Positions 13,758-62,043 are shown, numbered from the stretch's first letter. The stretch: 64,000 nucleotides of DNA from an uncultured Candidatus Peribacteria bacterium (GCA_964618565.1 CAZUBA010000002.1:20029-84028); one strand, 5' to 3'. Notes: generated from the letters alone by a model not told the origin. Made by a program: numbers and translations.

Positions 13758-13865
13758 AAATGGTGATTTTTAGGAATATATTCGTCAGTAACGGGCATTA
13801 TATTAATAAAAAAGCTTATTTAAGCAAAGTAAATAAGCTTTACAAAAAACACTTTTATTTTTTAA

Positions 13866-35977: not shown

Positions 35978-36955
35978 ATGCAAATAAATATAATTACCTT
36001 AAGTTGAGAAGAGGCTTCAACTTTATTAAGTAAGTCAAAATCTAATGGTGTAATCAATGGTGTTTTAAAGTTAATATATCAATGAAACTTGTTGGTTCCA
36101 AATTTGGAACCAACAAGTTTGTCAACTTCAAAAATGCCGTGGACAAATTATTCAAACCCAAAGCCTGATCTTGCTGATGTAGAAATAGATGGAAAGACCT
36201 ATGCAATTGCAGAAGCCCATCTTCTAAGAGAGAATCATGTAAAATTTGTTCATTCAGCCGATTTGATGTATCCTGTTATTTGAGTTATTGAAAAATTATT
36301 GGAAAGAGATGAAAAACTAAGTGTAATTGATGAAATAAAGCTTCTGAGTCCGATTAAAAATGAGGTGAAAATATATGCGCAGGACATTTCAGCTTGAACT
36401 AAATTTAATTTCAAAAAAGATAAGATTAGTGCAAAAGGCTTTGTCACTACAAGTAATTGAAGAAGAATTGAGTTTTTTGTTATTGAAAATCCATCCAGTC
36501 CGATTCAAGAAATAAGAAGTGCCAATCTTTTTTCGACAATGCTCTATGAAAAAAGAGTAGAAAAAGAAGAGAATAGATACAGCTTTTGATTAAATCCTGA
36601 AATAAGTGAAAATTTTTTTAGATGATTTAGCAGATCGTATCCTGTGCAGATATCGACTATTATCGATATCTTAGTAAAACAAAGCAGCACATTTAATATG
36701 ATTGATAGTTCTAATGGCTATAGCTTTGGTTATGTGCAAAGAATTAAAAATCTACCAGGGAAAATAGATTTTGATTCTCTTGTAAAGAATGGAGCCCAAA
36801 TTGAAATTTTTGTAAATATGGCAAAAAGAAGGAAAATGCCCTCTTGAATGTTTGTTATACCCTTAGAATTTTCATTTCCATGACAAAGTGAGCCAACATT
36901 GATTTATGCGGCCATTACTGAATCATTAGACATTTTTGATAAAGCTCAAGAATAA
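35978..36955 (+). CDS. hypothetical protein (325 aa)
   Basis: Two track ORFs are in the same frame, joined through TGA codons. TAA stop. Confidence 0.6.
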
Positions 36956-36989
36956 AAGTTAGACTTTAAATATTAAAGCCTACCTGAAA

Positions 36990-37022
36990 TAAAGCCTCTT
37001 TAAAAATTTAAAGAGGCTTATT
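36990..37022. terminator. bidirectional terminator between convergent genes
   Basis: Stem aagcctcttta/taaagaggctt. Confidence 0.6.
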
Positions 37023-37024
37023 GT

Positions 37025-38542
37025 TTATTTTTTTGGCAGAATAGTTGTAATGGCTTCTGTAATCCTTGCAAATGTCTCATCAAAATCTCAAGAAGCTCTT
37101 AAATAATCCCTTCATTCTTGAGGATTAGCTTGTCTCATAGCATTCAAGGTTTCATCGAATTCATCCATTCAAGGAACAATGATTCATTTTTCTCTTAATT
37201 CTGCTCAGAATTGTGCCACATGTGATGTCTCTAAAAATATAACTGGAGTATCTGAGTGAAAAGTTATAAAATCATGATAATCAATTCCGCTCTTTTTTCC
37301 AAATTGCTTATACCTAAGCCACGGAGCCACAGCCGATGCCGTATGAGGATCTATTCAATGATTATATTCTTGTCAAAATTCTTTAATAGCATTTAATCTT
37401 TCAGTATCTGTTGAAGTTGTCGAAATAAAGGTTTCCTGTATTTTTCTCAGAATTTCAGTACCAACTTCAAACTTACCATTTTTAGAAAGCTCATCATAAA
37501 ATCATTTTATTCTAGCATTATCAAATCAGCATGCATCAAAAAGCATCCTTTCAAAATTGCTTGATTTTGCTATATCCATAGATGGAGCGTTTGTGACTTG
37601 TACAAAATCTTTTCAGTCTCTCTTGGGAGGCTCATAAATTCAAGTCTTGAAAAATTTATGCAGCATGTCATTTTCATTTGTTGCAACCACAATTTTTTTG
37701 ATGGGCAGTCACATTTTTTTAGCATAATATCAAGCCAACGCATCTCAAAAATTTCAAGATGGGACAGAAAATATTACTTCATCTCAATTTTTAATGGCTC
37801 AATTTTTCAATAATTCAGCATATGCCCTGAAATAATAGACAACCTGCGCTAAAATTCTTGCTATATTTATAGAATTAAAAGAAGTTATATTATGCTCCTT
37901 TTTAAAATCTACAAATTCTGGACCATTAACCTTTTTTACAATATCTTGAAGCGGATCAAAAGGCTTATCTGCCAATAAAGTTAGGGCATTTGGATTATCA
38001 ACAATCCCATTTACAGCTTGTAAGCCTTGGACGTGAGAAGGTCAAACATTAGGCAGCATAAAAACAGACCTGATATTTGTTCATTTTACTCCGCTATGAG
38101 CTGCGTTTATAGTATCTCATGAAGATGCTCATAAGACATTTACAATCTTTCATTTTGTCAATACAGAAAGTAATCTAGGAAGAAATTCCAAGGCCACATT
38201 CTTAAAAGCAAAAGTAGGACCATATCACAAATGAAGCGAATGCAGATTTGTATCTCATATTTGTTTCACAGGAGTAATTTCACTTCTATGCCACTGCTCT
38301 CAATAAGCATCATTGATTATCTTTTTCAATTCTTCTCAAGAAACTCAAAAATCAAATCTTAATAATATGCTTAAGGCCACTTCTTGATATGTTTTCCCAG
38401 CAAGATGCTGAATCTCCTCTGATGTTACTTGAGGAAAATCGGTAATGGACCACAATCCTCATGATAATGGCTGACTTGTTTGTATTGCACCGGATAAATT
38501 TAATCTTTCGTCAGACCTAGAATCAGATAATAGATAATTCAT
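37025..38542 (-). CDS. thrC: threonine synthase
   Basis: 505 aa. Motifs GGLW, GPTFAFKNVAL, SSGDTINAA, PSGNFGD. Frame checked by triplets. Confidence 0.85.
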
Positions 38543-38870
38543 ACTCGAGTTTTACTAATTAAAATGTTATTCTCTTTTACATATTTATATTCAATAGTCA
38601 AAAGTATTTTGGATTTTAAGATGCCTCAAGAAAATATTGACTTAATGAGATAAATAAATAAAAGGTATTAATTGATTTATTTTTTAAACAAAAAAGCCAA
38701 CTTAATAAAAAATAAAATAATAAGTTGTTTTCAAAGGAGATTAAAGATATCGAACAAAAACAAATATTTCTCTAGCTGGGAGAAGAAAGGAATGATGGAA
38801 ATTTCAGCAGTCGCGGGGAAACTATCTTTAGGTGCAACTAACAGAATCAAAAACCGAAAGGAGAATGAGT

Positions 38871-39212
38871 ATGTCAAGAATCTGCGGCTTAGTAGCAATT
38901 TTCGTTTTCTGTCTGATCCTGCCTTTGCAGGCAATCGCCGGCGAGCTTGAGGACGGGAAAATCAGCAATGGCCTGAAAAATGCGCCGGATGTGTCCATCC
39001 TTCAGAGCGAACCATCAGAGCCGATCGTGGTTGCAGTAGGAAACGCCTGGGACTACGCATCCGGAACCATAATGCAGCCGTGCGGTTGCTGGGGATACAT
39101 CCCTCCTTCAACCGCAGTCGAGCCCAAGTGCTTCAGTGGCTACGTAGTGCTTGCCGCATGTAACACCTATTGCTCAGGGGGAGGATACTCATATGGCTAC
39201 AGATGCATGTAG
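38871..39212 (+). CDS. secreted cysteine-rich small protein (GC-rich, TGA-free)
   Basis: RBS aaggag lies 7 nt upstream. Signal peptide MSRICGLVAIFVFCLILPLQAIA. C-terminal CGCWGY...C...C...C...C. TAG stop. Confidence 0.7.
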   Translation: MSRICGLVAIFVFCLILPLQAIAGELEDGKISNGLKNAPDVSILQSEPSEPIVVAVGNAWDYASGTIMQPCGCWGYIPPSTAVEPKCFSGYVVLAACNTYCSGGGYSYGYRCM

Positions 39213-39307
39213 TGTCCGCCTAGAGCAAAATAATGAAAAGTGATTTTATCAGCCTGCAGAAACTGTAGTGCAGTAAAACAGAAGAAGTTTGGCAACATGT
39301 CGAAATC

Positions 39308-39337
39308 GGGGCCTAGTCTTGCACTAGGCCCCTTTCT
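39308..39337 (+). terminator. GC-rich rho-independent terminator
   Basis: Stem ggggcctagt/actaggcccc with loop cttgc, followed by TTTCT. Confidence 0.7.
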
Positions 39338-39405
39338 ATTATGTCCCCCGTTTCTTAGGGGCAAGCTGAAACGAACTTGAGAGACTTGCACCCTTTAAAC
39401 TCCGA

Positions 39406-39433
39406 TTGACATTTTAATAAAAGGCTTTATAAT
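39406..39433 (+). promoter_or_regulatory. sigma70-like promoter
   Basis: TTGACA-N16-TATAAT. The -10 element ends 27 nt before the ATG at 39460. Confidence 0.5.
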
Positions 39434-39459
39434 TATTGTGATTTTAAATAAGCCATTAT

Positions 39460-39912
39460 ATGAAAAATGAAATAATAGAGAGATTAAGGGCGACTGAATG
39501 CGAGTGGCTGGAACTAGAAGATTCCATGGAAATTGATCAAGAAAACCGTAAGCCTGCCTCCTCGGAATGCCCTGAAACAATTATTGAGTTGACCGAAAGA
39601 ACAAGAGAAAGGACTCTTCGACAACTAGCCCTGATTGCCTGACTATCGGAATTGTTACCAAAAAGGCAGAAAGATGATCTCAATCCTCCAGATGTATTCG
39701 ACAGCATAGAATATATTTCAGCACAGGCGAAAAAATTACAAAAGCAGATACTTGATGCAGTGGCTAGTGATGTTAAGCAGATACTAGACAATGTAATGTT
39801 TAAAGCGTCATTGCTTTGATTACCAAGATGAATCAAAGATGGAGAAACAAGATTTTCAACTATTATTACAGAAATAGAAGCGCTTTGAGAAGACGAAAAT
39901 ATTCCTTCCTAA
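39460..39912 (+). CDS. 150-aa protein of unknown family, paralog A
   Basis: Frame checked. 4 TGA-Gly codons. Shares IIERLRATECEW and LLGLPRGIKDGETRFSTIITEIE with the 51750..52202 product. Confidence 0.65.
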
Positions 39913-40094
39913 AGGTGCATTTCTTTGTAAGTACATGCCCAATCAAAGTTCAAGATTAAATAAAGTTCCGGTAACAGCCGGAATTTTCAATTTTAAGCGA
40001 CGTGGGCTTATATCTCAATGATCAAATATCTTTTGACTACAACTGATATAAATGATAGAATTCGTATAATTTAAATTATTAACAATAACTAATT

Positions 40095-41105
40095 ATGAAA
40101 AATGCATTAATCTTATTTATAGTATTATTGTTTTGAGTATTTAATCTCACAAACACATATTCTGATTCAAATTCAGCTGTAAATAGAAATTCATCAAAAA
40201 AAGATGCTTATAAAGAAATCTTCAAAAAACAATTATGAGATAAGCTAACAAAATTAAATGATCAGAAGAAAAATTCATTAGTTACTAACATTGATATTTT
40301 ATTGAACAAATATAAATGAAATTCTAAAAAAATTAATGTATCTGTACAACTGACTGCGCTTAAGGAATTGATTGTTGAAGCAAATCAAAAAACAACAGGT
40401 GGCTGAGATATCACCAAATCCAATAACGAACCTTATGCCGATATGCTTAAAACATATGATATCAAAATATATAGCAATGGTATTAATCTTGAATTAAAAG
40501 ATGGAACTGCCAAGGGTTTGGAAAATGTGAAAAAGGATTTAGAAAAGGTCAGATTTCTATATTGAACAACTTCTACTGAGAAATATATGTTTGGCAGATC
40601 GTTTTTGGGTTTTACAGATAATTCTGATATGAAAAATATCTATAACTTATGCTTAGATAATTTAACTCCAGATACCAAATATACATTTTCAATGCTCTTA
40701 TTTCATATTAAAGATAAACAAAACGGGAATCAAGAAATAAGAAATGATTTCGCTCCAGGTTATTTTATAACAAAAAATGATAATAGCACGATATCATGTT
40801 CTAATAAATTAAATTTGCCAATTGATAATATTGATAATGTTAAAATCAAATCAGAAAATACAACAGCAAAAATTGATTGGGAATTCAGTAAGGGCGCAAG
40901 GGCAGAAATATATATATTCGATTCTCCAATACAGTTCAATAACAGTCAAAAATCAATAAATAAAATAAATTTGGATTATAATAAGAACTGATTATATAGC
41001 GCTGAGTTTAAAAATCTTCAAAAAGGAAAAAAATATTACTATTTTATAACTCAGGATGTCGAAAAGGCTGACATAATTAAAACTTGAGAATTTACAATCG
41101 ATTAA
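40095..41105 (+). CDS. secreted hypothetical protein (336 aa)
   Basis: N-terminal hydrophobic signal MKNALILFIVLLFGVFNL. The track ORF 40587.. is in the same frame. Confidence 0.6.
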
Positions 41106-41157
41106 AAAACCAATATTTATTGCTTTCTTTTATGACATAATTGAAATCTAATAAATT

Positions 41158-41196
41158 TTAAAACTCCAGTTGCAAATAACTGGAGTTTATTGTTTG
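41158..41196. terminator. bidirectional terminator
   Basis: Stem aaactccagt/actggagttt. Confidence 0.6.
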
Positions 41197-41247
41197 GATT
41201 CTAGTACTGATATAAGATAAATGTAATTACAATAAAAGAAGGGCAAA

Positions 41248-43347
41248 TTAAATTCGTCTCATAATACTCAATAATAATAATGTGGACTTGGCAACTATTT
41301 CTTTTCGTATGATATCATGTTCGCCTTCTTGATTAGAACTTATATATTTTTGCTCTGCCCATAGAATTCGATAAATGTATTTAAGTGTGTTTTTCATATC
41401 CGAGAGCTCGTATCCTCTTGGCATTGAGTAAGTATCATAATCGTACCTGAAACTCCCTGGAGGCAAGCGTGCCTCAAAAAGCTTTTTCAAAAGATTTTGC
41501 AGGTCATCTATCATGGACAATTCTTTTCTCGTATGTTCTGTGTATGTTACAACAAATAGATTCTTTCGCCTAAGAGTAGCTATTCCTTTAGTGTAGCTTT
41601 TTATGAATATTGCATTTCATTCTAATTTCTTTCGCGTATTCAAATCATATGCAGTAAGAGTTTTTAAATCTCATGAATTTGATTCGATAAGAGAAATTGC
41701 AATTTGAGGAACTATTCAGTCTACATATCAATATTTGTCATGCCAAACAGCAGAAAAGAAACCGAATAAAGAATTTTGTTTTCCATAGTTCAAGTAATCA
41801 TTTGATGACAGCACATCATTTCATACATATAAATAACCCTCTCTTTCCAACTCGGAATATTGATTATGAAATGTATTGAAATCATCACAATCAGAATGTT
41901 TGACTGAAGGCATATCCGCTCTAATTTCAGAAACATGCGCTAAATAAAGCAAACCATCGACTTGTCCTCAGATAACATCATTATCATTCGGATAAGATTC
42001 TGATTGTTCTCTCTTTATATAATCTTTCACAATATCATTATCTATTTTTCTGTATGGAGTTCAAAACAGTCGATCGGCCCAATCTTCCACCGTCATTGTT
42101 TTTCCTCATATCAAACTGATTGTTTTGCCTACAAGAGGACTCACACTGGAATGAATGGGATGCTCATAATGATGATTATTCTTATATATCGATCAAGACT
42201 GGGCAATAGAATAAGAATCGTTCTCATAATTCATTTTAAATGGATATTTGGGATAGTGCCTCTTGAATATGGCACAAATCTTCAATATTCATTTTAAGGA
42301 TTCAATTTCGGATTTATCAATAAGAGATATTTCTGCCATTATCTCCCCTGCTATCTTCGGCGAGATTATCTTAACCTCAAGATAAGCTTTTCTTAATTGT
42401 CAAAAAACTGATGTCGGCTGTTTCATCCTGTAGTCAAGAAGCTCTTTTCTCTCAGAATCGCTCAAGACACTGTTGTATTTAGGCGCGCCGACATTATTAT
42501 CAAATTCATTGTCATTTATATCTGGAAATTTGGAATTTTTTATTAAGATTCCATTATGTTCAACATTATAAATGTTTCCTTTGAAGTTTAATTCCAGATC
42601 TTGGATATCGTTACGATAAAATGCAAAACTCGCCTCCAAAACCCCTCTTGAAGATTCAGTTTCAATTCATTCAAATAATGTTAATTCATTGAGTATGTTC
42701 TCAGCTATTTTGGGTTCGTAATTTTTAATCATCAGGTATTTGAATCTTAATTGCCCCTTAACAGAAATAGGTTTTTTCCAAAAAATATAATCTATAAGCT
42801 CTTCAGTTTCTTCATGAATGAGATTGCCTCTTTTTTCAACATCTTTTCTGTAATTCAATACAATTCCCTCTTGTGAATCTGAAGGCAACAACCTTGTTCT
42901 ATATAATCACAGATTATCATCCAGAGGTTCGATTAGTGGCTTATCGATATTTCTTTTTATGAGATTTTTTCATGATATTCTGTAGTGCAGTTCGCCAATT
43001 TTCAATTCGAATTCAGAAAGATATTTTTTCAATATCAAGCAAAGATTGACCCTATTATCGTTTAGAATTTCGTAATAAGCGGCAGATCATCTTTTGATTT
43101 CAAATAAGCTAACCAGATCGATATCATCCAATTCTATCCGCATCTTCTCCGCTTCCTCACAATCATTGTTTTTGACAATGATGTAATAGCGATTTAGCTG
43201 TTCTTTTACTGCTGATATATGTTTTTTTTGCATAATTTCCGCAGTCCGCTTCTGAACGATTGATTTTGCATTCTCATATGCCTCCGGTCCTCTGGCGCCA
43301 GATAGAGATTGCTTCTCTATGATATTGGGTAAATTATTTCTATGCAT
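41248..43347 (-). CDS. hypothetical protein (about 700 aa)
   Basis: Four track ORFs share one frame, with no TAA/TAG between them (checked). ATG at 43347 (TTG at 43356 also possible). Confidence 0.6.
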
Positions 43348-43542
43348 GTCTCTCAAAATAGATAATTTTAAAAAAATTTATTAATATATTATAACAATAA
43401 TAATTACTTATGCAAATAATGTAGAATTATCATCATTTTACCTGTTGGCATATCATCATGATATGTCCATCTTCATGTCGTTTTATAAGTTCAATGAAAA
43501 CCAATTCAGCTTATGGCTTTATGACAAATAATTAAATTAAAA

Positions 43543-44145
43543 CTAAGATCAGCTTGTTCACAAGTATCATTTCAAATTTAAAATCCTATTTACTTTCTCT
43601 CATACAGCATAAGTTCTCACATCTGGACTATTTGGCTTAAGAATAGGAGTATCAAAAATAGTTTTTATCTCATCTGCTTGATCATATATTTTGGTTGCGG
43701 ATTTGACTGATAGTCACTTATGCCGTTGTCATGATGAACTTATGGTCACCTCATTCATATGTGTCGTTTCATAAAAAAGTTTGATATGCCATGCTGGAAA
43801 GAGAAATATTTTTGAAATTGCAATTGAGTTTTGAAAGTGTTCAAATAAATCATCATTTTTTGATGCTTGCCTCAATATTCAAAGCGGTCTTAAGCCACTT
43901 ATTGTCCTGTAGAATGCAAGGGCATAAATATCATTGTCAGTCAGCTTCAAAAGCTGTTCCACGAGGATATTGACAGGCTGACCATAAAGTCTGCATTTGA
44001 CTTCAACATCAGTCTCATCATCCAAACGTAAATCAGCTCATTTATTAACTCCTCTTTTAACTCATCAAAGAAGTTGTCCTACGCTTTGTTCTCAAATATG
44101 GCAGCTCAATTCACGGGCACGATTAATAAGGATTAGATCATTCAT
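43543..44145 (-). CDS. hypothetical protein (200 aa)
   Basis: Frame checked by triplets. TAG stop. Confidence 0.5.
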
Positions 44146-44268
44146 AAATATTAATGAGGTACAATATAGGTTATATATAACTTATAATGAAAAGATTTAT
44201 AAAGTCAATATTATACGCTGCCGCAAGAATCATGTAGCATTTGCCCGGGTGGAAATTTACCTATGATA

Positions 44269-44296
44269 TTGACATATGCTATATATTATATATAAT
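44269..44296 (+). promoter_or_regulatory. sigma70-like promoter with about 113-nt leader
   Basis: TTGACA-N16-TATAAT. Confidence 0.45.
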
Positions 44297-44415
44297 AATT
44301 TTACTTTTGGCTAATGCGCCATTTCAAACAAAAAATCAGTGAGATGGTTGATATTTTCAATCCAAATTCACTGATAACAGTTCATGAACATATAAATTTT
44401 TCCTAGGAGGAAAAA

Positions 44416-45126
44416 ATGGATACCCGAAATTCTAAGATTTTAGGATGGTCAGTATTTGCTTTAACTCTTTTGGCGTACATCCCTCTTGGTCTCGGCAGCT
44501 GGAATAAACCTGCAGAATTCAATATGCCTAGCTTTCTGGCATGGGTTCTATTGGCAGGACAATTCCTTTATGCAACCCACTCTCAAGGTTTTGATGGTTG
44601 GAGGATGCCCTTCGGATACTTCATCGGCAACATAGGAGTTGTGATAGTCATGTTGTATCGAGGCGGATATACGATGAATCTGACATTTACTGAGCATATC
44701 CTATTCGGAGGTACGATTCTTGTAGGAACAATATGGTTTATATGCTACCAGCGTTCGAAGAAAAGCAATCCTAGGATACTATACTTCGGAAACATCCTCG
44801 TCGATATGATATCCTTCTACCCGCAAATTAAGCAATTTGCAGGAGTGCATGATCCTGTCAGCCTCAAGACACTATTAGGCTGGGCAATGTTTCTCCTTAT
44901 CGCAGTCATTAATGTATTCGTGGTAGAAAGATTCATGAAGAAGATAGCAATGAAAGATAGAGAATATGAATTTGCCTTTAATCGAAAAAAGAGAGTCATG
45001 TCGATTTTGGAGGAAAGCCTATTCTCAATCGAGCAATCAATCTTCATCGGTGGCCTGCTCGTATTAATGCTGTTTTGAAAACATGAACTGATTAGTCCTC
45101 GCTCTAGCGAGGACTTTTCTTATTAA
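44416..45126 (+). CDS. multi-pass membrane protein with PQ-loop-like motif (GC-rich); extended 16 codons past a fossil TGA stop
   Basis: RBS aggagg. The 220-codon TGA-free ORF contains ISFYPQIKQF. The TGA at 45076-78 would read as Gly in this host. The next stop is TAA at 45124-26. Confidence 0.7.
45094..45118 (+). terminator. rho-independent terminator lying inside the read-through extension
   Basis: Stem agtcctcgc/gcgaggact with loop tcta, followed by TTTT. Confidence 0.7.
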
Positions 45127-45163
45127 TTGAAATTGTATAATGAAGACTTGAATTATTATATAG

Positions 45164-46555
45164 TTATTCTTCGTCGGTGAATATTTCAATTTTACCCTCA
45201 TCCATAACTGGCAAATATAAATTAAAGGTTGTTCCTTTATCTCAAACACTATGGACTGATATATTTCAACCGTGTTTCAATATGATGCTCTGAGTAATGA
45301 ATAACCCTAATCATCTGCCGGTATTCAAATCTCAACTTGTTCAGAAAAAAGGTTTGAATATTTTTTTAAAATCATCTTCTTTTATTCAGCTTCAAGTATC
45401 TTTTATGGATATGCATAAATACTCACCCTCTTTAGTTAATTTTAATGTATTTGTCATATTCCTATCAGCAACGATAGTTGAGACATCCAAAGTTATAGTC
45501 CCCTTTCACCTTATTGCCTCTTTTGAATTTTCTATCAGATTTGCTATTGCTTTTACAAGATGATTTCGATCTCCAAGTACAAAAACATTCGGATCTTGTA
45601 TATTGATATTAAAAGTCACTTCATTGTGAGTAGATCAATCCCATAATCCTAGGTTATGAAAAATTTCATTAACTTTAAGAGGCTTGAGTTTAATTTTTTG
45701 TATGTTTCTTACCTCACTGAATCTTCTTGTCATTTTTTCCCCCTTAATGCAAACTGCATAAATTTTTTCGATTATTTCCTTAAATGAATTTGTGCTTGAT
45801 TCGATTTTTCCGATTTCAGAATTAAATTCTCATGTATCTTTTAAATTTTGGATAATCTCAGATATTTCCTCCAATTGTAATTCTCAGAAATGGGTGTAAG
45901 AATTGATTGCTGTTAAGACTTGACTGAATAGATGCGATAATTCTCATAATGAATTTGCGAATTCGGTATTAATATTCGATTGGTGCAATAGCTCTTTGAG
46001 CTTTTTTTTCTCAGTTATGTCTTCAACCATAACCATTGCCATTCAATCATAAGGTATGACAGTAAAATTTCTCCATGTTCTCTTTCATCAGAACTTAGAT
46101 ATGTAATCAATATTATACAAATAATTTATTTCTCAATTTGTGCAGGATGATTGAATTGCATCCAAAAGTCCTATTTCTAAATACAGCTCGATATCTTTCT
46201 GTACATTTTTTCAGATAAGCTTATGGCTCTCATCTCAACTTATTGAATACATAGGCGGATTAACATACTTTATTGTGTAATCCTTATCAATCAATAAAAC
46301 TCAATAAGGTACTTTCTCAAGTACCCCCTGTAATATCCTGCTAATTGGAGTATTTATATTTATTCAAGTATTTTCAGGGGAAGCTGATTTAATTTCTTCC
46401 TTAGACATTGCATTTAATAATTCAGCTACTTTATCTGGATTACTGCTTAATATCCTTAGCAATTCTTGAGAACTTAATAAGCCGCCCTCGCATAATTCAG
46501 CAGCAATCTTATTTGGATCATCATTTGATTTAATTATATTTCCTACGCCGTTCAT
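45164..46555 (-). CDS. PAS-domain sensor histidine kinase
   Basis: 463 aa. ELSHLFSQ H-box-like region, N-box LIENSKEA, DTGSGI, GRGLGL. Frame checked. Confidence 0.8.
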
Positions 46556-46691
46556 AATAAGTATATATATTAAAAATAATTTAACCAAATAGTAAATATA
46601 TAAGTTTTAATGTCAAATTAAAGCATCTTGTAAATATATTCTTAGCATTTTCTTAAATATGGCTTAAAGTTGAGTTTCATTTGCGTAATTT

Positions 46692-46724
46692 AAAAAATAG
46701 ATAGCTTAAGCTATCTATTTTTTA
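46692..46724 (-). terminator. palindromic terminator
   Basis: aatagatagctt/aagctatctatt flanked by A/T runs. Confidence 0.6.
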
Positions 46725-46738
46725 AAGTCAAAGAGTAA

Positions 46739-47464
46739 TTAATCGCCATCTGCTCAGGTTCAAGAAATACCTGTATCATCATCGCCCTGATTGATCAGAT
46801 TAAAAGCCAAAAAGTTAGAAAATCAGTCATCATATAAAATTTTTTGTCATCTTCAAGGGAAATGTGAAGAAATACCAGAAACTGATTTTGAATTTTTTCA
46901 ATTCAACTCGACTGTGCCTGTTATTGGTTTTTTAATTGTTAATTTATTTGGATTCCTATCTTGAGCCCCTTGTAATGCTACAATATCAGTGAACTCTTTA
47001 ATATTTATGATTATCGCATCTTTTCCAGCTATTGCATCTATAAAGTTCTGTCAGATATGTCCTAGGGATAAGGCATAATATTTTCAATCCAGTTGAACTA
47101 ATGGAAGCATTCTCTTGTCTTTCATCAACTTGATTGCTTGAGTAACCTTTTGAAGTGCAAGGTCATTTTTATCCTCAAGAAGCTTTTTCTTTATATTTGT
47201 TTTGGAGATAATCCGATTAATCTTATATCTGATTGCAGCAGCAATATATCAAAAAATGGTATTTTGAGCTGCTATAAGATTGACTTTATTTATCCTTTTC
47301 GATAAATGTCAGGTGGGATACATATTATTTAATCCGAGATATTCTTGTAAAACCTCAAGTTCATCTAACTGTATTTTTCTAATATATAACTTCCCCAGCA
47401 TTTCTTCTGCTATTTCATCCTCAAAGGGAAAGGGATTTGCTTGAATATTATTATTTAAATGCAT
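46739..47464 (-). CDS. hypothetical protein (241 aa)
   Basis: Frame checked by triplets. Confidence 0.55.
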
Positions 47465-47640
47465 TTTTATAAATATTAATTCCTGAAAATAATATCATAA
47501 AATGTTTCAAGCGCAAAAAATAGCAATATAAAAAAGGGACTAATTTCAATTTAATTTAAATTTGATTGCATAATTGACAAATTCAATTAAATATTTATTA
47601 TGAATCATATTTGTTTAGGTTTAGCTTTTTTAATAAAAAA

Positions 47641-48666
47641 ATGATTCAAACTCCGGATATTCTTCAGCAATGAAATCTGAAAACCATCCGCGCATGTGCA
47701 CGTATTTTAATCTGCATTAAAAAATTTAAAAGAAAGGCTCTGAATATAATTGAGCCACTTTCCTATCAAACTGCAAACAAAAAAGTTCAAGCTTTTTTAA
47801 AGAATCACACTTCCAGTTCAATATGCCTAAGCAGCGTTCATGATACGCTTGACGCCTTAGAACAAAAGCTTTCTCCCGAACAGATCGATGAATCTGAAAA
47901 ACTATGAATTTATGTTGCGATCCTTTGGTCAAATCTTGATAAGATTTTAGATCATAAAAGTGTAACTGATGATATTTTTTTTATGATTCTAGATCATTAT
48001 TATAGCTTATCTAGGGGTTGATCTGTCAAAAATTTACCTTATGCTCAACCGAAATTTCAAGAATTAGAGATTATCGCAAGAAATATTGCAATGATCATTG
48101 CAAGGCTGCCTCAGAAAGAATTATTCCAAGAAATATTTGAGATTCTTTATAATTCTGTATGTGAACAAAGAAGAGGTGAAATCAGATCAAGAGGTTCGTT
48201 TGATTTCTGGTATCTTGACGAAATTAAAAGTGAACTCAGAACATATAATTGACTTTCAGGCGTTGAACAAGATTGGATTTTCCTTTCTGAACGCTTGTGA
48301 TTGGCCTCAGTCATGCTCTCGGCTTGAGCACCATTCTATTTTCTTACTGAATTTTCTGAAAAAGATAAGGCGGCATTTCTGGATTTGCTTCATTTTTGAT
48401 CAGTCTGACAATTATTAGATGATAGCATTGATGCTGAGAAAGATAATGATAACGGCAAATATTCATTCATGACATTGAAATGAAATAAGAGCATACGTGA
48501 AATTTTCGTTACAAATCAGCGAATTAAAAATATAATCAGGTTCCCTCTTAATTGAAGCTCTTTCCGCACATTCACAGCATTCAGGGATGCTTATCCGATT
48601 CTTAGCAAATTAAGGCCACCTGATAACAAAGCAGATCTTCCTTATGAAATCTGATCTTTAAAGTAA
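47641..48666 (+). CDS. hypothetical protein (341 aa) with one DDxxD-like motif
   Basis: Frame checked. GQLLDDSIDAEKDNDNGK is reminiscent of the second Asp-rich motif of isoprenoid synthases. No first motif was seen. Confidence 0.5.
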
Positions 48667-48679
48667 ATCTGATACATAA

Positions 48680-50485
48680 TTATAGGCTCGTATCATATTC
48701 CTCTAAAAATCAATCTTTTTGAAAATCCACCATTTCCTTATAGGCTTTATTTTTATTGTAAAGGGAATCATGGGATCATGAATCGATTACTTCTCAATTT
48801 TCAAGAAGGAATATTATATCTGAGTTCTTTATAGTTGATAGCCTGTGGGCGATGACTATTGAAGTCCTTCATTTCATGAGGTTGTTCAAAGATTTCTGGA
48901 TGATGCTTTCTGTTTTGGAATCCAGAGCTGAAGTCGGCTCATCAAGGATCAAGATATCAGGATCTCTTAATATGGCTCTTGCGATTGAAAGCCTTTGCCT
49001 TTCTCATCAAGAAAGCTTAAGTCACTTTTCACCTACTTCAGTTTCAAAACCAGCCTCCAGCTTCTCTATGAAATCAAGAATCTCCGCCTTTTTACAAGCC
49101 ATTCTTACTTCTTCTAATGTAGCGTCTTCTTTAATATATTTAAGGTTGCTTAAGATCGTCTCATTAAATACTGTAGTATCTTGAAATACTGCCGCAAATT
49201 TCCCCCTGTAGCTATCAAGAGTATAATCTTTGATATTGATTCAATCAACAATCACTTCTCAAAACTCAGTCTCATAGAATCTTGTCACAAGATTTGATAT
49301 TGTCGTCTTTCAAGATCAGGTATGTCATACAAATGCGACTTTTTGTCATTTTTTTATTTCCAGATTTAGATTTTTAAGTATTTCTCTGTCGCTTTTTTTG
49401 TAATTGAAAGTTATATCTTTTAATACTATATTGTTTTTTAATCAAGAGAATTCGATTTTTCATTCATTCAATTCTTTCGGAGAATCGGTAATTTGTTTTG
49501 TTTTATGAAAATCAGCAAGATCCCTTATGACGGATTGATATGATGATAAGAGACTATCTATGGGTCATGATATCCTTCATGAAATATAGATGAAAACAAG
49601 AAGCTCACCTATCGTCAGGAATCATTTTACTACAAAGAATACTCAAAAAATCATAACAGAAATCTTAGAGAAAGCTTGAACTCATTTTAATATGGTATTT
49701 AAAATATTCCATAAATAGTTGGATGAGGTCTGAATTTTCATGCTTTTTGAAAAATATGATTCAAGTGTTTCATTTTCTTGTTTCTCTTTTGCAAAAAGCT
49801 TTATGATTCCGATATTATTAAGAGCATCATTTAGCCGCTGATAACTCCTATTCCATGCACTATAGGCTTCCTTCTGTATATTAAAGACCTTGCCTCATAT
49901 CTTCAATGTTGCATATATGCTTATTGGCATGAATACCAAAGAAACAAGAGTCATCTTCCAATTAATATAAAGTCAAAATGAAAATAAGCTTATGAAAATC
50001 AATATCTGCGGCAATATCTTATTGAGAAAATTATGTCAAAAGCTCCAGAAAGCATCCGTGCCTTTGTTAAAGATATTTTGTTGAGTTCATGGATTTGTAT
50101 TGACAAAATCGTTATAAGGCAATAATAAAAAGCTTTTTCATATTTTAACAGCATACTTTGCCCAGTCCAAATGCATGATTCGATCGGTGTAATATTCATA
50201 TCATCATTGGGCAAGGATTAAAATTACAGATATTATCCCCCATATGATCGCTAAATAGATAAAATTTGATTTTATTGTTTCGTACGATATTTTATCCGTT
50301 GAAAACTCTTGAATATTATCAATGAATAATTTATAAAAATAAGGCTCTGCAAGAAGAAATGCCGTATTTATCAAAAGCAATAAAAATAACCACCAGAAAT
50401 TTTTTCTGATATGAAGATAATTATTGTAAATATCTTTTATAAGTTCCCATTTTGGAATTGCATGTGTGTCTTTTTCTTCAGTCAT
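48680..50485 (-). CDS. ABC exporter, fused permease/ATPase (MsbA-like)
   Basis: 601 aa. Motifs [42 protein letters not shown]. Frame checked. Confidence 0.85.
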
Positions 50486-50584
50486 TCAGTTCTTGATTAT
50501 AAAATTTATGCTTCAATCCTATACTATATTATTTTAAGGATAAAAGCAAAATTTGAATCGTATTTCCCTAAAGATCGAACAGGC

Positions 50585-50767
50585 TTATGAATTAAAAGAT
50601 ATTTTTGATTTTAGCTTATTATATTCGCTTTCATTTAATTCTAAGGAAGCCACTTTACCATTGACTGAAAAATTAAAATAAACAGTATAGCTGTCTTTTA
50701 TATTTTTTTCCGTGTAAGAAATAAGTCCGCAATTTATAATATTTCACTCTTTTACTTCTGAAAACAT
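50585..50767 (-). CDS. small ORF (60 aa), hypothetical
   Basis: ATG..TAA frame with one TGA. No supporting signals. Confidence 0.3.
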
Positions 50768-51028
50768 AATAATGATGTTATGAAACAATAATTATATCCT
50801 TAGCTATTCAATTATCCAATTAATTTATGAATAAAAATTCAAATTGTACAAGATACGCAGTTGAATTTGCAATCATGAATTGCTTCATAATATGATTTGA
50901 CATAATAATTAATAAAAATATAAATACTGAAACAAAAAGGTTTAAAAAGGAGGAGGTCTGGTTAAAGGAAAAGCTATGCGATGATTGGTTCATTAACCTT
51001 TACGGGCAGTTTTTGAAGGGGGTGCTTC

Positions 51029-51574
51029 ATGGACAAGAAAGCGTGGGATGAGTTTTTTCAAGCCAAGGAAATGTCCAGGTTCATGCTGGAAAACAAATTC
51101 AGGAATCTGGAAGCCATGATGAAAGAGGAGCTCGAAACGAGGGAAACTTACGAAGGGCTTCGGCAATCCAGCTTCCAATTCGAGTTCAAGCTGAAGCCCT
51201 TGGCAAAAATGGGGAGCCTCATCACAGACGTGAAGTCGATCTACTACTGCATCATCGGGAAATTCAACCACGATAAGAGCTTCGAACACTGCAAAGCTAT
51301 GATTGCTGAATTTGAGAAGAAGCTCAAGGAGCTCATCTACTTCGAAGAATGCTGCAAGATGAAGAAGTTCCTCAGGGCCGATGCCCAGTACGAGGAGATG
51401 GAAGCGTTGGGGCTCTTCGAGCTCGGCGACAAAGAACTCGACAAAATCTCTCTGCTGAGGGGTCTCGTCATGCGGTGCGCCTGCTGCTTCAACTTCATGG
51501 AAAGCTCTTCGCTGATCGAGGAATACGAAGGGCTCATGGTGAAAATCCGCCTTTATGAACCAGTTCCCGCGTAG
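51029..51574 (+). CDS. GC-rich, TGA-free, Cys-rich helical protein (181 aa), unknown family
   Basis: Intact in the standard code. G-rich RBS (gaaggggg). TAG stop followed by a strong terminator. Strong GC3 bias, unlike the neighbouring genes. Confidence 0.7.
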   Translation: MDKKAWDEFFQAKEMSRFMLENKFRNLEAMMKEELETRETYEGLRQSSFQFEFKLKPLAKMGSLITDVKSIYYCIIGKFNHDKSFEHCKAMIAEFEKKLKELIYFEECCKMKKFLRADAQYEEMEALGLFELGDKELDKISLLRGLVMRCACCFNFMESSSLIEEYEGLMVKIRLYEPVPA

Positions 51575-51597
51575 CTTCCTACCCAACTCAGATTAAC

Positions 51598-51626
51598 CAA
51601 AACCCCGCATAATGCGGGGTTTTGTT
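51598..51626 (+). terminator. GC-rich rho-independent terminator
   Basis: Stem ccccgca/tgcgggg with loop taa, followed by TTTT. Confidence 0.75.
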
Positions 51627-51695
51627 ATTTCATCATAAGCAGAACCTTAAAAATGCAGCCTAAATATGAACTACACACAGCAATGAGCTTGAGTA

Positions 51696-51723
51696 TTGAC
51701 TTTTTCAACAAAAGCACTATAGT
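51696..51723 (+). promoter_or_regulatory. sigma70-like promoter
   Basis: TTGACT-N16-TATAGT. The -10 element ends 27 nt before the ATG at 51750, the same geometry as at 39406. Confidence 0.5.
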
Positions 51724-51749
51724 CAGAGCATTAATTCTTCTTTATCTGC

Positions 51750-52202
51750 ATGGAAGTCCAAATTGTCAAAAGACTTAAAGAGGCTGAAGAAAAATGGCTC
51801 CTGTCAAATGCTGCTATTGAAAATATAAATTTGCAGATAGTCCAGCTGTTGGAGAAAAGGCCTAGAGAAAGAAGAAAGATGGTATTGACAATACAAAAGC
51901 AAACTAAAGACAAAATCATTGAGCAATTGAATATCATACTTTTATTGCAGAAAATCATATCACAAGAAACAATTATGTCTATTCCGGAAAGCATATTTTC
52001 GGATGTGAATTGCCTCACTGAAGAGGCTAAGAAAATACTCGATCTCATAGAAGACACTGACTCTGATGCTCTGGATGAATTGCTTGAAAAGATAACTTTC
52101 AGAGTTTTTTTCTTAGGGGTTCCTATTTGAGCAAAAGGAAGTGAAACAAGATTCTCTGAAATGATTTCAAAAATTGAATCGAATTTATCAAATATTGATT
52201 AA
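51750..52202 (+). CDS. 150-aa protein of unknown family, paralog B
   Basis: The track ORF continues through TGA 52128-30 to TAA 52200-02. Motifs IVKRLKEAEEKW and FLGVPIGAKGSETRFSEMISKIE. Confidence 0.65.
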
Positions 52203-52298
52203 TTCCCTACCCTATTCCCTTAAAGATGAATCCTTTTATCACTGTTATATGTAGATTCCATTCAGTATACGGATCTGACGATATATAAATATTTACGT

Positions 52299-53063
52299 TT
52301 ATTTGATATTAAAAATAAAATCCTTTAAAGCTGCCATTGAGCCTATATAGGCTTTAGTGATTTCAATGAGCGTTCATTCTGGTTCAAGAGCTTTTCAAAT
52401 ATTTATATACCACTTATTTTGCTTATCTCTATAAACATAAATAGGGATAATGGGGCTATTGTTTTTGATTGCCATCTTTGCAAATCATGGCTTTATTCAC
52501 TCATGCCAAGTCTTTATAGAGTCCAGACGAGTTGAATAAAACCTCTTATCTTTGGTATCATATGCTGTTTCTGGAATAAAATCTTGTTTTCAGCTTCCCC
52601 ACCAATTTCAATATGGAAATATTATAATATTATTATCTTTGAGTCAGTTTAGGATCCGTTTAACATCATGAAAATTCCGCTTTTGGGCAATCTGATTGTT
52701 AGGTACATTCAAATGAATAGGATATCAATCTATTAAAATGCCAAATAGAGCATGAGAAAATCTTGAATGAATGGTATAAATAAGATCAGCCATTCTTGAG
52801 TCTATGGCCATATCGCTATCTCATCTGAATACCACTTTTGATTTTTTTATTCATCTGACTTCCAATACATTTTTTAATGCTCAAAAATCATCCGGCATAG
52901 TAAAAATTTTGTGCCGTAAATCAGAATGAGGTGTTATATGATTTGGTGCAAATATTACAAATTTTCAACTTTTATTTAAATCTGAAACTTTTTCCAATGT
53001 ATTATTGTCATCTCAAACAAAAACTATTTTTGAAACAAATGAATCAATGTTCTCTATTCACAT
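52299..53063 (-). CDS. lysophospholipid acyltransferase (PlsC-like)
   Basis: FAPNHITPHSD (NHxxxxD) and IIIFPYGNWWG. 254 aa. Confidence 0.7.
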
Positions 53064-53267
53064 ATTGATTATTTATTAAACAATCTTTATATAATTATAT
53101 CCAAATAAAGTCATAAAACAAAAATTGCAAGTGATAATTTTGACCCCAATTTAATTAATATTTTCAATATTGGCAAAGAGGGCAGATTTTTGATTTCTAT
53201 ATAAAAAAAGGTATAATATCAGCTATTTCTATATTAAATAAAATGACTATCTTTTTATTTGAAATAT

Positions 53268-61400: not shown

Positions 61401-61817
61401 CAGATTAAGTTAATGATTTACCTGGGGGGTAGGTTATCCTATTATTGTAGAATGTCAAATTTATGTTTGAAAATAATTAGTGAAGATTATTAAATTTTTA
61501 CAAAAGGCTGAAAAGTATGGGTAGTTTGAAACTGAAATTTTATCAATGAAGCATATATGATAAGAAATAAAAAAAACCGCAAGAGTTCTGCTCTTAAACA
61601 ATAAATACGAAATATCAAATCCTGAATTATCATGAGATTTAGCTTTGCTTGATATAGTGATAAATAAGAACCTGATATTCCTAAGGAAAGATAATTCATT
61701 TAAATGCAGCATAAAGAAATAATCAATTCTGCATATATGAACATCTTCAAATAAATATATGCTGATATTACTGCTTTGAATTTTTTTAAATAGCTATTCC
61801 TAAAATATGAAAATAAC

Positions 61818-61848
61818 AAAACCCCCTCGTTAAAAACGAGGGGGTTAA
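61818..61848. terminator. GC-rich hairpin (terminator-like)
   Basis: Stem ccccctcg/cgaggggg with loop ttaaaaa. Confidence 0.5.
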
Positions 61849-61908
61849 TTCATAATCGCATAATCGATAACATGATGTTACGATAAGGAAAGGAAAATAT
61901 TGCATAAA

Positions 61909-62043
61909 ATGATGGAGCTCGCGACTTTTGAGGCTCTAAAGACAGTTTATTCATATCTGGAAAGATACTTTCTTACATGAAAACACAAAGAATATGAAGT
62001 TTACCTTGAAAGGATAAAAAATTCTAATATAAAAATAATTTAA
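61909..62043 (+). CDS. small ORF (44 aa), hypothetical
   Basis: aaggaaagga lies upstream. One TGA. Followed by the hairpin at 62061-62095. Confidence 0.3.

What the first reader, a model, noticed from the sequence alone, without database searches (positions are those of the whole stretch)
44416..45126. Fossil standard-code stop: TGA followed directly by a terminator, predicting 16-codon read-through into the hairpin
The GC-rich membrane-protein ORF is TGA-free for 220 codons and then reaches TGA at 45076-78. Sixteen nucleotides later comes a GC-rich stem (agtcctcgc/gcgaggact) plus TTTT. That is the normal layout for a gene end in a standard-code organism.

In a TGA=Gly host the ribosome should continue through GKHELISPRSSEDFSY to TAA at 45124-26. 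This means translating through its own terminator hairpin.

This is direct sequence evidence that the gene and its terminator were imported from a donor where TGA is a stop. It has not yet been adapted to the new code.
Basis: partly seen in the sequence, partly recalled or inferred. Interest (0 to 1): 0.65.

Follow-up and report, generated by a model that had tools for sequence, protein, structure and literature searches.

The report
Imported gene keeps its old stop codon
A membrane-transporter-like gene that a Gracilibacterium (a bacterium that reads TGA as glycine) took from a standard-code relative still ends in TGA. The host should therefore read on for 16 extra codons through the gene's own transcription terminator. 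This is a clean but expected side effect of gene transfer across genetic codes.

Summary
The window comes from a low-GC Gracilibacteria (BD1-5) genome in which TGA encodes glycine: 730 in-frame TGA against 445 GGN, and 13 of 17 TGA in RlmN align with Gly.

ORF 44416-45078 is an outlier:
- It has 19 GGN and no internal TGA (p about 1e-7).
- Its GC3 is 0.455, against 0.276 +/- 0.052 in native genes.
- It has the only AGGAGG ribosome-binding site placed before a real gene start in the window.
- It ends in TGA, followed 15 nt later by a 9-bp GC-rich hairpin and a T-tract.

The protein family is small, with 31 representatives among 1.84 billion proteins. All 26 homologous loci examined lie in standard-code DNA, and the named ones are Patescibacteria. 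All 23 aligned homologs end where this TGA lies; two carry short unrelated extras and none carries the 16-residue tail. Eleven of 21 distinct homologs also stop with TGA.

The "fossil stop in an imported gene" reading is therefore well supported. Actual read-through is inferred, not shown.

I add one consequence. The effective stop, TAA 45124-26, lies 9-11 nt past the hairpin. That is at or beyond the expected transcript 3' end, so either non-stop mRNAs or suppression of the terminator is predicted.

The concept is known from code-11-compatible phages of these bacteria and from recoded E. coli. Interest is modest.

The parts
44269..44296 (+). Sigma-70-type promoter-like site, a perfect TTGACA-16 nt-TATAAT. 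It lies in the AT-rich spacer 120 nt upstream of the ATG.
   Evidence: 12 of 12 matches, one of only two perfect sites in 36000-55000. Function not tested.
44405..44410 (+). Shine-Dalgarno sequence AGGAGG, 5 nt before the ATG.
   Evidence: It is the only AGGAGG in the window placed before a real gene start. The native genes show no such motif.
44416..45075 (+). Coding sequence of 220 codons with no TGA. It encodes a 7-helix membrane protein with a PQ-loop-like motif, SFYPQIKQ.
   Evidence: 19 GGN, 0 TGA, GC3 0.455; the AlphaFold2 model has pLDDT 95, and the top 13 Foldseek hits are cystinosin and the KDEL receptor. describe the family.
45076..45078 (+). TGA. This was the stop codon of the gene in its standard-code ancestry, and it is predicted to be read as Gly in this host.
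   Evidence: homologs end at this aligned position, and 11 of 21 distinct homologs stop with TGA. TGA = Gly in this genome.
45079..45123 (+). Fifteen further codons of the predicted read-through tail (KHELISPRSSEDFSY), which overlap the hairpin.
   Evidence: for the translation; no homolog has these residues; one public assembly's gene caller, using an alternative genetic code, reports a 236-aa product.
45094..45115 (+). Intrinsic-terminator hairpin: 9-bp stem with 6 G-C pairs and a 4-nt loop.
   Evidence: free energy -19 kcal/mol, z = -5.3.
45116..45126 (+). T-rich tract TTTCTTATTAA. Its last three bases are the effective stop codon TAA (45124-26).
   Evidence: The TAA ends 11 nt after the stem. 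That is at or beyond the usual release point of intrinsic terminators, which is 7-9 nt after the stem (my own textbook knowledge, not a tool result).

Best explanation
The gene is a recent horizontal acquisition by a code-25 Gracilibacterium from a standard-code bacterium, most likely another member of the Patescibacteria (CPR).

What was imported. The unit is about 0.7 kb: Shine-Dalgarno site, ORF, TGA stop, and probably the GC-rich intrinsic terminator.

What happens in the new host. TGA is a glycine codon there, and RF2 is reported absent from the phylum. The ribosome should therefore insert Gly at 45076-78 and translate 15 more codons through the terminator hairpin. It should stop at the TAA inside the T-tract (45124-26), giving a 236-aa protein with a hydrophilic C-terminal tail.

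Consequence for termination. The effective stop now lies after the hairpin instead of 15 nt before it, so two outcomes are expected:
(a) Transcripts released at the terminator lack a complete stop codon. These would be non-stop mRNAs, which call for ribosome rescue and possibly tagging of the product.
(b) A ribosome closely following the polymerase prevents the hairpin from forming. Transcription then runs on, antisense, into the convergent kinase gene.

Shown: the foreign signature, the homologous position of the TGA, the code of the host, and the geometry. Inferred: the read-through itself, expression of the gene, and outcomes (a) and (b).
For: Host code:
- TGA is a sense codon, makes up 62% of Gly-type codons, and aligns with Gly in RlmN.
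- The host AspRS is 79-82% identical to Gracilibacteria / 'gcode 4' BD1-5 proteins.
- prfB was not found in any BD1-5 genome (PMC6851277).

Foreign origin:
- 0 of 19 internal Gly codons are TGA, p = 1.2e-7.
- GC3 is 0.455 against 0.276 +/- 0.052 in native genes.
- AGGAGG sits at the start, while native genes lack a Shine-Dalgarno site.
- The family has only 31 representatives among 1.84e9 proteins.
- All 26 homologous loci fetched are standard-code. All those with taxon-labelled records are Patescibacteria, and none is TGA-recoded.

Fossil stop:
- All 23 aligned homologs end at this position and none has the tail.
- Stops of distinct homologs are TGA 11, TAA 6, TAG 4, and at least 8 of 21 have a strict hairpin plus T-run downstream.

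Terminator:
- Hairpins with 6 or more G-C pairs follow the GC-rich TGA-free genes at 39308, 45094 and 51598.

Not an artefact: independent assemblies agree.

Intact protein: the AlphaFold2 model has pLDDT 95 and a 7-TM fold.

Recurrence: a second gene with the same signature exists in another Gracilibacterium (L034 13805-14437). It has a GGAGG site, 9 GGN and no internal TGA, ends ...TGA TAA, and is followed by a GC-rich terminator.

Precedents:
- Code-11-compatible phages of these phyla use TGA stops followed by nearby backup stops (PMC10746230).
- A terminator placed a few bp after a translated gene is almost completely repressed in E. coli (PMC4824070).
- tmRNA acts on read-through and non-stop complexes in recoded E. 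coli (PMC6207430).
Against: - No expression or peptide data exist. The gene could be silent.
- The closest homolog is only 42-44% identical, so the donor is unsampled. 'Recent' rests on composition alone.
- The protein departs from the family at 2 of 11 nearly invariant positions (F141 and V144 in alignment A3).
- The terminator shares no sequence with those of homologs. Native genes also have intrinsic terminators (7665, 8170, 36992, 41161, 55115), so the hairpin could have arisen in place.
- prfB, tRNA-Gly(UCA) and tmRNA could not be checked, because only a tRNA-Cys lies in the window.
- Lower TGA use in a highly expressed native gene, GroEL of L035, shows that TGA depletion is not by itself proof of transfer.
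Confidence: 0.8

Rival explanations
1. Dual-code cassette. The gene is kept free of internal TGA, and ends in TGA plus a nearby backup stop, because it rides on an element that shuttles between standard-code and code-25 hosts. Its state would then be maintained by selection rather than 'not yet adapted'.
For: Code-11-compatible phages of Gracilibacteria and Absconditabacteria show exactly this pattern (PMC10746230). The second example, in L034, lies beside a tRNA gene and terminase, integrase and methylase genes. Four such genes occur within 25 kb of the window.
Against: No relative of the gene was found in the phage, plasmid or viral-contig collections. The gene and its neighbours have no PHROG hit with an assigned function. 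No integrase or transposase is next to it. The 12-nt inverted repeat that brackets it is about chance level. All homologs sit in chromosomal-looking Patescibacteria contigs.
Confidence: 0.08
2. Dead passenger. The gene was imported but is not productively expressed. The missing usable stop before the terminator makes its product unstable, and it is drifting towards loss.
For: The effective stop lies beyond the expected 3' end of the terminated transcript. There are two departures at nearly invariant family positions. The only two SNPs between the two sampled populations fall inside the gene, and one is non-synonymous at a mostly conserved Tyr.
Against: The 220-codon ORF is intact. It has a perfect promoter-like site and an AGGAGG site. 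The fold prediction is high-confidence, and the motif SFYPQxKQ and the four columns at least 90% conserved across the 24-sequence alignment (G155, S201, E206, M218) are retained. The gene is present in two populations. This rival shares the fossil-stop reading and differs only in whether the gene is productively expressed.
Confidence: 0.07
3. Native gene with expression-linked avoidance of TGA. The gene is vertically inherited, and its GGN-only glycine codons reflect codon preference rather than transfer. On this view the terminal TGA is an ordinary Gly codon in a native C-terminal tail.
For: GroEL in a related genome uses TGA for only 6 of 60 Gly-type codons, against a 27% locus average.
Against: Avoidance here is total (0 of 19). 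It is accompanied by raised GC at all codon positions, by a Shine-Dalgarno site that native genes lack, and by a GC-rich terminator. No homolog was found in any other TGA-recoded contig. The single TGA falls exactly at the family's C-terminus.
Confidence: 0.03
4. Assembly chimera or contamination. A fragment of a co-occurring standard-code CPR genome was joined to the Gracilibacteria contig by the assembler.
For: Public short contigs break at the hairpins (39329 and 45115).
Against: Three separate assemblies from three sequencing runs carry the same junctions. One is a distinct population with 2 SNPs, and it includes 8 in-frame TGA of the adjacent kinase gene. The gene lies only 37 nt from the stop of that kinase gene.
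Confidence: 0.01
5. Context-dependent termination. This organism still terminates at some TGA codons, for example close to a 3' hairpin, so the protein ends at residue 220 as in the donor.
For: None from this window. Position-dependent stop and sense reading is known only in some ciliates (my own knowledge, not a tool result).
Against: prfB is reported absent from all BD1-5 genomes (PMC6851277). UGA = Gly has been confirmed by proteomics in this phylum (cited). Native conserved genes such as AspRS end on TAA or TAG at the conserved C-terminus.
Confidence: 0.01

Closest known systems
Genetic code 25 (UGA = Gly) of Gracilibacteria/BD1-5 and Absconditabacteria/SR1
   Same: The host genome fits this code. 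TGA is abundant in frame and aligns with Gly, and the closest AspRS relatives are Gracilibacteria.
   Different: The finding is not about the code itself. It concerns a single gene inside such a genome that still carries standard-code punctuation.
Code-11-compatible phages of Gracilibacteria and Absconditabacteria (Liu et al. 2023, mBio, PMC10746230)
   Same: Both involve genes without in-frame TGA, some with TGA used as a stop and another stop close behind. They would be expressed in a host that reads TGA as Gly.
   Different: Here it is a chromosomal cellular gene for a PQ-loop-like membrane protein, with no phage or plasmid relatives. The backup stop lies inside the terminator's T-tract, a geometry that paper does not discuss.
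Genomically recoded E. coli and foreign genes ending in an unreadable stop (Ma et al. 2018, eLife, PMC6207430)
   Same: In both, a foreign gene's stop codon is not recognised by the host. This leads to read-through, C-terminal extension, ribosome rescue and tmRNA tagging.
   Different: In that system UAG is unassigned, so ribosomes stall. Here UGA is efficiently decoded as Gly. Trouble is expected only where the mRNA ends before the next stop.
Position effect of a translated ORF on an intrinsic terminator (Li et al. 2016, NAR, PMC4824070) and classical attenuation
   Same: In both, a ribosome translating up to or into a terminator hairpin represses termination.
   Different: Here the overlap is an accident of a code change, not an evolved regulatory device. 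Transcription-translation coupling in Gracilibacteria is unknown.
PQ-loop / cystinosin / KDEL-receptor 7-TM fold (the SWEET-related TOG superfamily)
   Same: The model has seven long helices and an SFYPQxKQ motif. The top 13 Foldseek hits are cystinosin and the KDEL receptor, with probability 0.66-1.0 (at least 0.85 for 12 of them) and query TM-score 0.41-0.57.
   Different: There is no Pfam PQ-loop hit, Foldseek E-values are only 0.01 or weaker, and sequence identity is 10-15%. The family is small and apparently specific to Patescibacteria.

Membership tests
Host genome using genetic code 25 (TGA = Gly) | Long ORFs are restored when TGA is read as a sense codon | tested here: met
   ORFs of at least 100 aa sum to 17 kb under the standard code and 101 kb with TGA as sense. 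Greedy gene calls cover 88% of the window.
Host genome using genetic code 25 (TGA = Gly) | In-frame TGA aligns with conserved Gly, not Trp, in conserved proteins | tested here: met
   In RlmN, 13 of 17 TGA align with Gly of PDB 6fz6 and 0 with Trp. TGA makes up 3.9% of codons, too many for Trp, since TGG occurs only 142 times.
Host genome using genetic code 25 (TGA = Gly) | tRNA-Gly(UCA) present and release factor 2 (prfB) absent | not testable with these tools
   Only a tRNA-Cys lies in the 64-kb window. The rest of the genome is not available. Absence of prfB is taken from PMC6851277.
Horizontally acquired gene | Composition and codon usage deviate from the resident genes | tested here: met
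   GC is 0.41 against 0.32. GC3 is 0.455 against 0.276 +/- 0.052 (z = 3.4). 0 of 19 internal Gly codons are TGA against 62% expected, p = 1.2e-7.
Horizontally acquired gene | Expression signals unlike those of resident genes | tested here: met
   AGGAGG lies 5 nt before the ATG. Using my crude gene starts, native genes show no Shine-Dalgarno motif. In a scan that does not depend on called starts, the only AGGAGG or AGGAG before a real gene start is at 44416 and at the other foreign-looking gene, 38871.
Horizontally acquired gene | Patchy distribution: relatives in other lineages, none in the host's own lineage | tested here: met
   Twenty-six homologous loci are all standard-code, and the named ones are Patescibacteria or Paceibacterota. 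Only the window and its own population are TGA-recoded.
Horizontally acquired gene | Empty site in sister genomes, or phylogenetic nesting inside a donor clade | not tested
   The neighbouring kinase has no close homolog besides itself, so no syntenic sister locus could be fetched. No tree was built, and all homologs are 38-44% identical.
Intrinsic (Rho-independent) terminator | G+C-rich stem, short loop and a T-rich tract directly after the stem | tested here: met
   The stem has 9 bp with 6 G-C pairs, the loop is 4 nt, and the tail is TTTCTTATT. Free energy is -19 kcal/mol, z = -5.3.
Intrinsic (Rho-independent) terminator | Transcripts end at the T-tract in vivo | not testable with these tools
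   No transcript data are available.
PQ-loop / cystinosin-like 7-TM proteins | Seven transmembrane helices with the cystinosin / KDEL-receptor fold | tested here: inconclusive
   The AlphaFold2 model has pLDDT 95 and seven long helices. The top 13 PDB hits are cystinosin and the KDEL receptor, with query TM-score 0.41-0.57 but E-values of 0.012 or weaker.
PQ-loop / cystinosin-like 7-TM proteins | Match to the Pfam PQ-loop profile; two PQ motifs | tested here: not met
   There is no Pfam hit apart from a sub-threshold 2TM match. Only one PQ-type motif, SFYPQIKQ, is evident.

The most novel reading that the evidence does not exclude
The code change rewires transcription termination as well as translation termination at imported genes. 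The effective stop has moved from 15 nt before the hairpin to 9-11 nt after it. This natural transfer would then yield one of two outcomes. Either terminated transcripts are non-stop mRNAs whose product is rescued or tagged by tmRNA, a natural 'genetic firewall' acting on a cellular gene. Or the ribosome suppresses the terminator and transcription runs on into the convergent kinase gene. More broadly, Gracilibacteria genomes may carry a recognisable class of standard-code cassettes exchanged with other CPR bacteria. These cassettes have a Shine-Dalgarno site, no internal TGA and a GC-rich terminator. There are 4 in this 64-kb window and 1 in 21 kb of a relative. Their stop-codon spectrum would record which imports survive.
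Probability: 0.3. Interest if true: 0.55.

Novelty: new member of a known kind. Interest (0 to 1): 0.35.

Why it matters
This is a clean natural example of what happens to a gene that crosses a genetic-code boundary in the permissive direction, from three stop codons to two. The coding body works unchanged. Only the punctuation fails, which costs a short C-terminal tail and places the new stop beyond the gene's own terminator.

It gives a simple, scorable signature for finding recent imports in code-25 genomes: no internal TGA, many GGN codons, a Shine-Dalgarno site and a GC-rich terminator. It also points to concrete peptides and transcript 3' ends to look for.

It shows that CPR bacteria with different codes exchange genes, which bears on how strong a barrier a code change really is. 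It does not reveal a new mechanism or system.

Tried and rejected
- Phage or mobile-element origin. tblastn of the protein against 50,697 phage records and 72,556 plasmids found no match. The viral-contig scan found no relative. The PHROGs scan of the gene and its neighbours gave nothing with an assigned function.
- Empty-site test. The adjacent histidine kinase has no close homolog other than itself, so no sister locus could be fetched. The contigs of the two closest Gracilibacteria, reached through AspRS, lie 17 kb away in window terms and do not cover the region.
- Looking up the 236-aa read-through protein, and a code-25 translation of RlmN, by exact sequence.
- A family-wide alignment was too divergent for the metagenome scan. 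A 10-sequence subset worked.
- Pfam gave no family for the protein, nor for the other foreign-looking genes at 38871 and 51030, the paralog pair g32/g42, or g34, g35 and g38.
- Flanking repeats as insertion scars. Only a 12-nt A/T-only inverted repeat (44289-44300 and 45151-45162) was found, about what chance gives in this DNA.
- Non-coding RNA in the GC-rich islands. Rfam at gathering threshold found only the tRNA. The island at 38.7-39.2 kb, which my crude caller first read on the minus strand, is better explained by a plus-strand, standard-code ORF.

Full report
**1. What is in the sequence**

ORF 44416-45078 starts with ATG and is preceded by AGGAGG (44405-44410). It runs for 220 codons without any stop and reaches TGA at 45076-78.

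Fifteen nucleotides later comes the hairpin AGTCCTCGC-TCTA-GCGAGGACT (45094-45115), followed by TTTCTTATTAA. The terminator scan lists it with 9 pairs, 6 of them G-C. It folds at -19 kcal/mol, z = -5.3 against 200 shuffles.

Reading TGA as a sense codon adds G-KHELISPRSSEDFSY and ends at TAA 45124-26. 'GC-rich' here means 41% in a 32% genome.

**2. The host reads TGA as glycine**

- Under the standard code, ORFs of at least 100 aa sum to only 17 kb. With TGA as sense they sum to 101 kb.
- A crude gene call with TAA and TAG as the only stops covers 88% of the window. It contains 730 in-frame TGA against 445 GGN and 142 TGG. TGA is thus 3.9% of codons, a glycine-like frequency rather than a tryptophan-like one.
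- In the RlmN homolog (8244-9314, minus strand), 13 of 17 TGA align with Gly of the solved RlmN 6fz6 and none with Trp.
- The window is cellular. It encodes RlmN, RecF, an M23/SLH peptidase, a DEAH-type helicase, AspRS, threonine synthase, an ABC transporter and a GH3 glycosidase.
- Its AspRS is 82% identical to an 'uncultured bacterium (gcode 4)' protein and 79% to a 'Candidatus Gracilibacteria bacterium' protein.

The host is therefore a Gracilibacterium (BD1-5). For that phylum, UGA = Gly has been confirmed by proteomics, and prfB has not been found in any genome (PMC6851277; PMC10746230).

**3. The gene is foreign to this genome**

Four independent signals agree.

(i) Glycine codons. There are 19 GGN and no internal TGA, where 62% TGA is expected. 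The binomial p is 1.2e-7.

(ii) Composition. GC3 is 0.455 against 0.276 +/- 0.052 for native genes of at least 150 codons. In 100-nt steps, the GC rise runs from about 44400 to about 45100, which is the ORF plus the hairpin.

(iii) Translation signal. With my crude starts, 3 of 52 genes show any Shine-Dalgarno-like tetramer. In a scan that does not depend on called starts, AGGAGG or AGGAG stands 4-10 nt before a true gene start only at 44416 and at 38871. The latter is another GC-rich, TGA-free gene. The other matches are internal methionines.

(iv) Distribution.
- The family is tiny, with 31 representatives in 1.84 billion clusters.
- Twenty-six homologous loci were fetched from genome and metagenome collections, with GC 38-62%.
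- Their coding density under the standard code is 0.78-0.97, apart from one 2.2-kb contig at 0.66.
- The ones with taxon-labelled records are Patescibacteria or Paceibacterota genomes assembled from metagenomes.
- None shows TGA recoding.

The best identity is 42-44%, so the actual donor lineage is unsampled.

**4. The TGA is the ancestral stop**

In a 24-sequence alignment, all 23 homologs end at the column of the window's last residue before the TGA. Two carry short unrelated extras of about 9 and 1 residues. None contains the tail.

At the DNA level, the 21 distinct homologs stop with TGA (11), TAA (6) or TAG (4). A strict scan finds a hairpin plus T-run within 100 nt in 8 of them, and several more are visible by eye.

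If the 11 TGA-ending homologs were placed in a code-25 host, their tails would be 3 to 444 codons long, median 29. Sixteen is unremarkable.

**5. It is not an artefact**

- Contig L003, from a different run (SRR944699), spans 44133-45603 with 2 SNPs. It includes 8 in-frame TGA of the convergent kinase gene.
- Contigs from two further runs are identical to the window over 39329-46718 and 45115-46718. Their gene caller reports a 236-aa product for this gene.

**6. Did the terminator come along?**

The evidence is circumstantial.

- A whole-window scan finds four hairpins with 6 or more G-C pairs. Three follow GC-rich, TGA-free plus-strand genes (39308 after 38871-39212; 45094; 51598 after 51030-51574).
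- The fourth is at 61846-61820 on the minus strand.
- Native genes that have terminators use stems extended by A/T runs with 4-5 G-C pairs (7665, 8170, 36992, 41161, 55115).
- The hairpin starts 15 nt after the TGA, within the 10-55 nt range seen after other stops in the window. By contrast, it ends 9 nt before the TAA.

The layout makes sense only with TGA as the stop. However, there is no sequence similarity to the terminators of homologs.

**7. What the protein is**

- Pfam gives nothing above threshold.
- An AlphaFold2 model built from 25 family sequences is confident (pLDDT 95, pTM 0.89) and has seven long helices.
- Foldseek against the PDB returns cystinosin and the KDEL receptor as the top 13 hits. 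Probabilities are 0.66-1.0, query TM-scores 0.41-0.57 and E-values 0.012 or weaker.

Together with the invariant SFYPQxKQ motif, this points to a PQ-loop-type 7-TM protein, probably a small-solute transporter. Membership of the Pfam family is not met.

**8. How it most likely works in the host**

This part is inference. Gly-tRNA(UCA) decodes 45076-78, and the ribosome melts the hairpin and proceeds.

Intrinsic terminators release RNA about 7-9 nt after the stem (my own textbook knowledge). Here that is about 45122-45124, while the TAA occupies 45124-26. Terminated transcripts would therefore often lack a complete stop codon. They would be non-stop substrates for ribosome rescue, as documented for read-through products in recoded E. 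coli (PMC6207430).

Alternatively, if translation follows transcription closely, the ribosome would occupy the hairpin sequence and repress termination. This is what happens when a terminator is placed a few bp behind a translated gene in E. coli (PMC4824070). Transcription would then continue antisense into the kinase gene (45164-46555, minus strand).

Which outcome dominates cannot be decided here.

**9. Rivals**

- A shuttle cassette kept code-neutral by selection, as in the code-11-compatible phages of these phyla, is not excluded. It lacks support, since there are no phage, plasmid or viral relatives and no mobility genes nearby.
- Expression-linked TGA avoidance exists in principle (GroEL of L035). 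It does not explain the GC shift, the Shine-Dalgarno site or the phyletic pattern.
- An assembly chimera is excluded by independent assemblies.
- Residual termination at TGA has no support.
- The gene may be a poorly expressed passenger. That possibility is compatible with the main reading.

**10. Generality**

The window holds three more GC-rich, TGA-free plus-strand genes, all ending in TAG:
- 27196-27791, RibD_C family.
- 38871-39212, a secreted Cys-rich protein.
- 51030-51574, a coiled-coil protein.

In 21 kb of another Gracilibacterium (L034), the gene at 13805-14437 shows the same signature. It has a GGAGG site, 9 GGN and no internal TGA, and ends ...AAA TGA TAA. It is followed by a GC-rich terminator and sits beside a tRNA gene and prophage-like genes. 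The phenomenon therefore recurs.

**11. Verdict**

Conceptually it is an expected consequence of code 25 and parallels published phage observations. I therefore file it as a new member of a known kind, with modest interest. The relation between the terminator and the stop codon is the one testable extra.

Noticed in passing
window 27196-27791 (+), 38871-39212 (+), 51030-51574 (+): Three more GC-rich, TGA-free, standard-code-looking genes lie on the same strand. They are a RibD_C/DHFR-like protein, a 113-aa secreted Cys-rich protein with an AGGAG ribosome-binding site, and a 181-aa coiled-coil protein with GC3 0.74. All three stop with TAG, whereas native genes mostly use TAA. The last two are followed by the strongest GC-rich terminators in the window (39308-39332 and 51598-51624).
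   Followed up: partly
window 39460-39912 (+) and 51750-52202 (+): Two 150-aa paralogs (25% identity, E = 3e-15, no Pfam family, normal TGA usage) each sit directly downstream of one of the foreign-looking gene-plus-terminator units. Each has its own promoter-like site (39406-39433 and 51696-51723). This is a repeated two-gene arrangement of unknown meaning.
   Followed up: partly
whole window: Native genes have no Shine-Dalgarno motif upstream of their starts, and leaders after promoter-like sites are short. AGGAGG or AGGAG before a real gene start occurs only at the two foreign-looking genes, 44416 and 38871.
   Followed up: yes
L034 13805-14437 (+) (GCA_028689205.1, JAQTWP010000007.1): This is a second 'fossil TGA' in another Gracilibacterium. 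The gene is GC 0.37 in a 0.28 locus, has a GGAGG site and 9 GGN with no internal TGA, and ends AAA TGA TAA. It is followed by a GC-rich terminator, then a tRNA gene on the other strand and terminase, integrase and methylase genes.
   Followed up: partly
L035 12425-14089 (-): GroEL of a more distant code-25 relative uses TGA for only 6 of 60 Gly-type codons, against a 27% locus average. Four of the six lie in the C-terminal Gly-rich tail. This hints at TGA avoidance in highly expressed genes.
   Followed up: no
window 44289-44300 and 45151-45162: A perfect 12-nt inverted repeat, TATATAATAATT / AATTATTATATA, brackets the unit running from the -10 box to just before the neighbouring gene's stop. 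It is about what chance gives in this AT-rich DNA.
   Followed up: partly
window 61820-61846 (-): A fourth GC-rich terminator-like hairpin (12 pairs, 7 of them G-C) lies inside a small, doubtful ORF (61700-61954), about 290 nt downstream of the AspRS gene. What it terminates is unclear.
   Followed up: no
window 39329, 45115, 46718 (ends of contigs L030 and L031): Public short-read assemblies of the same population break inside or at the end of the terminator hairpins. This is probably an assembler effect of the inverted repeats.
   Followed up: no
window 44570 and 44598 versus L003: The only two differences between the two sampled populations over 1471 bp both fall inside the imported gene: Y52F and a synonymous change. 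There are none in the 808 bp of flanks. The numbers are too small to interpret.
   Followed up: partly
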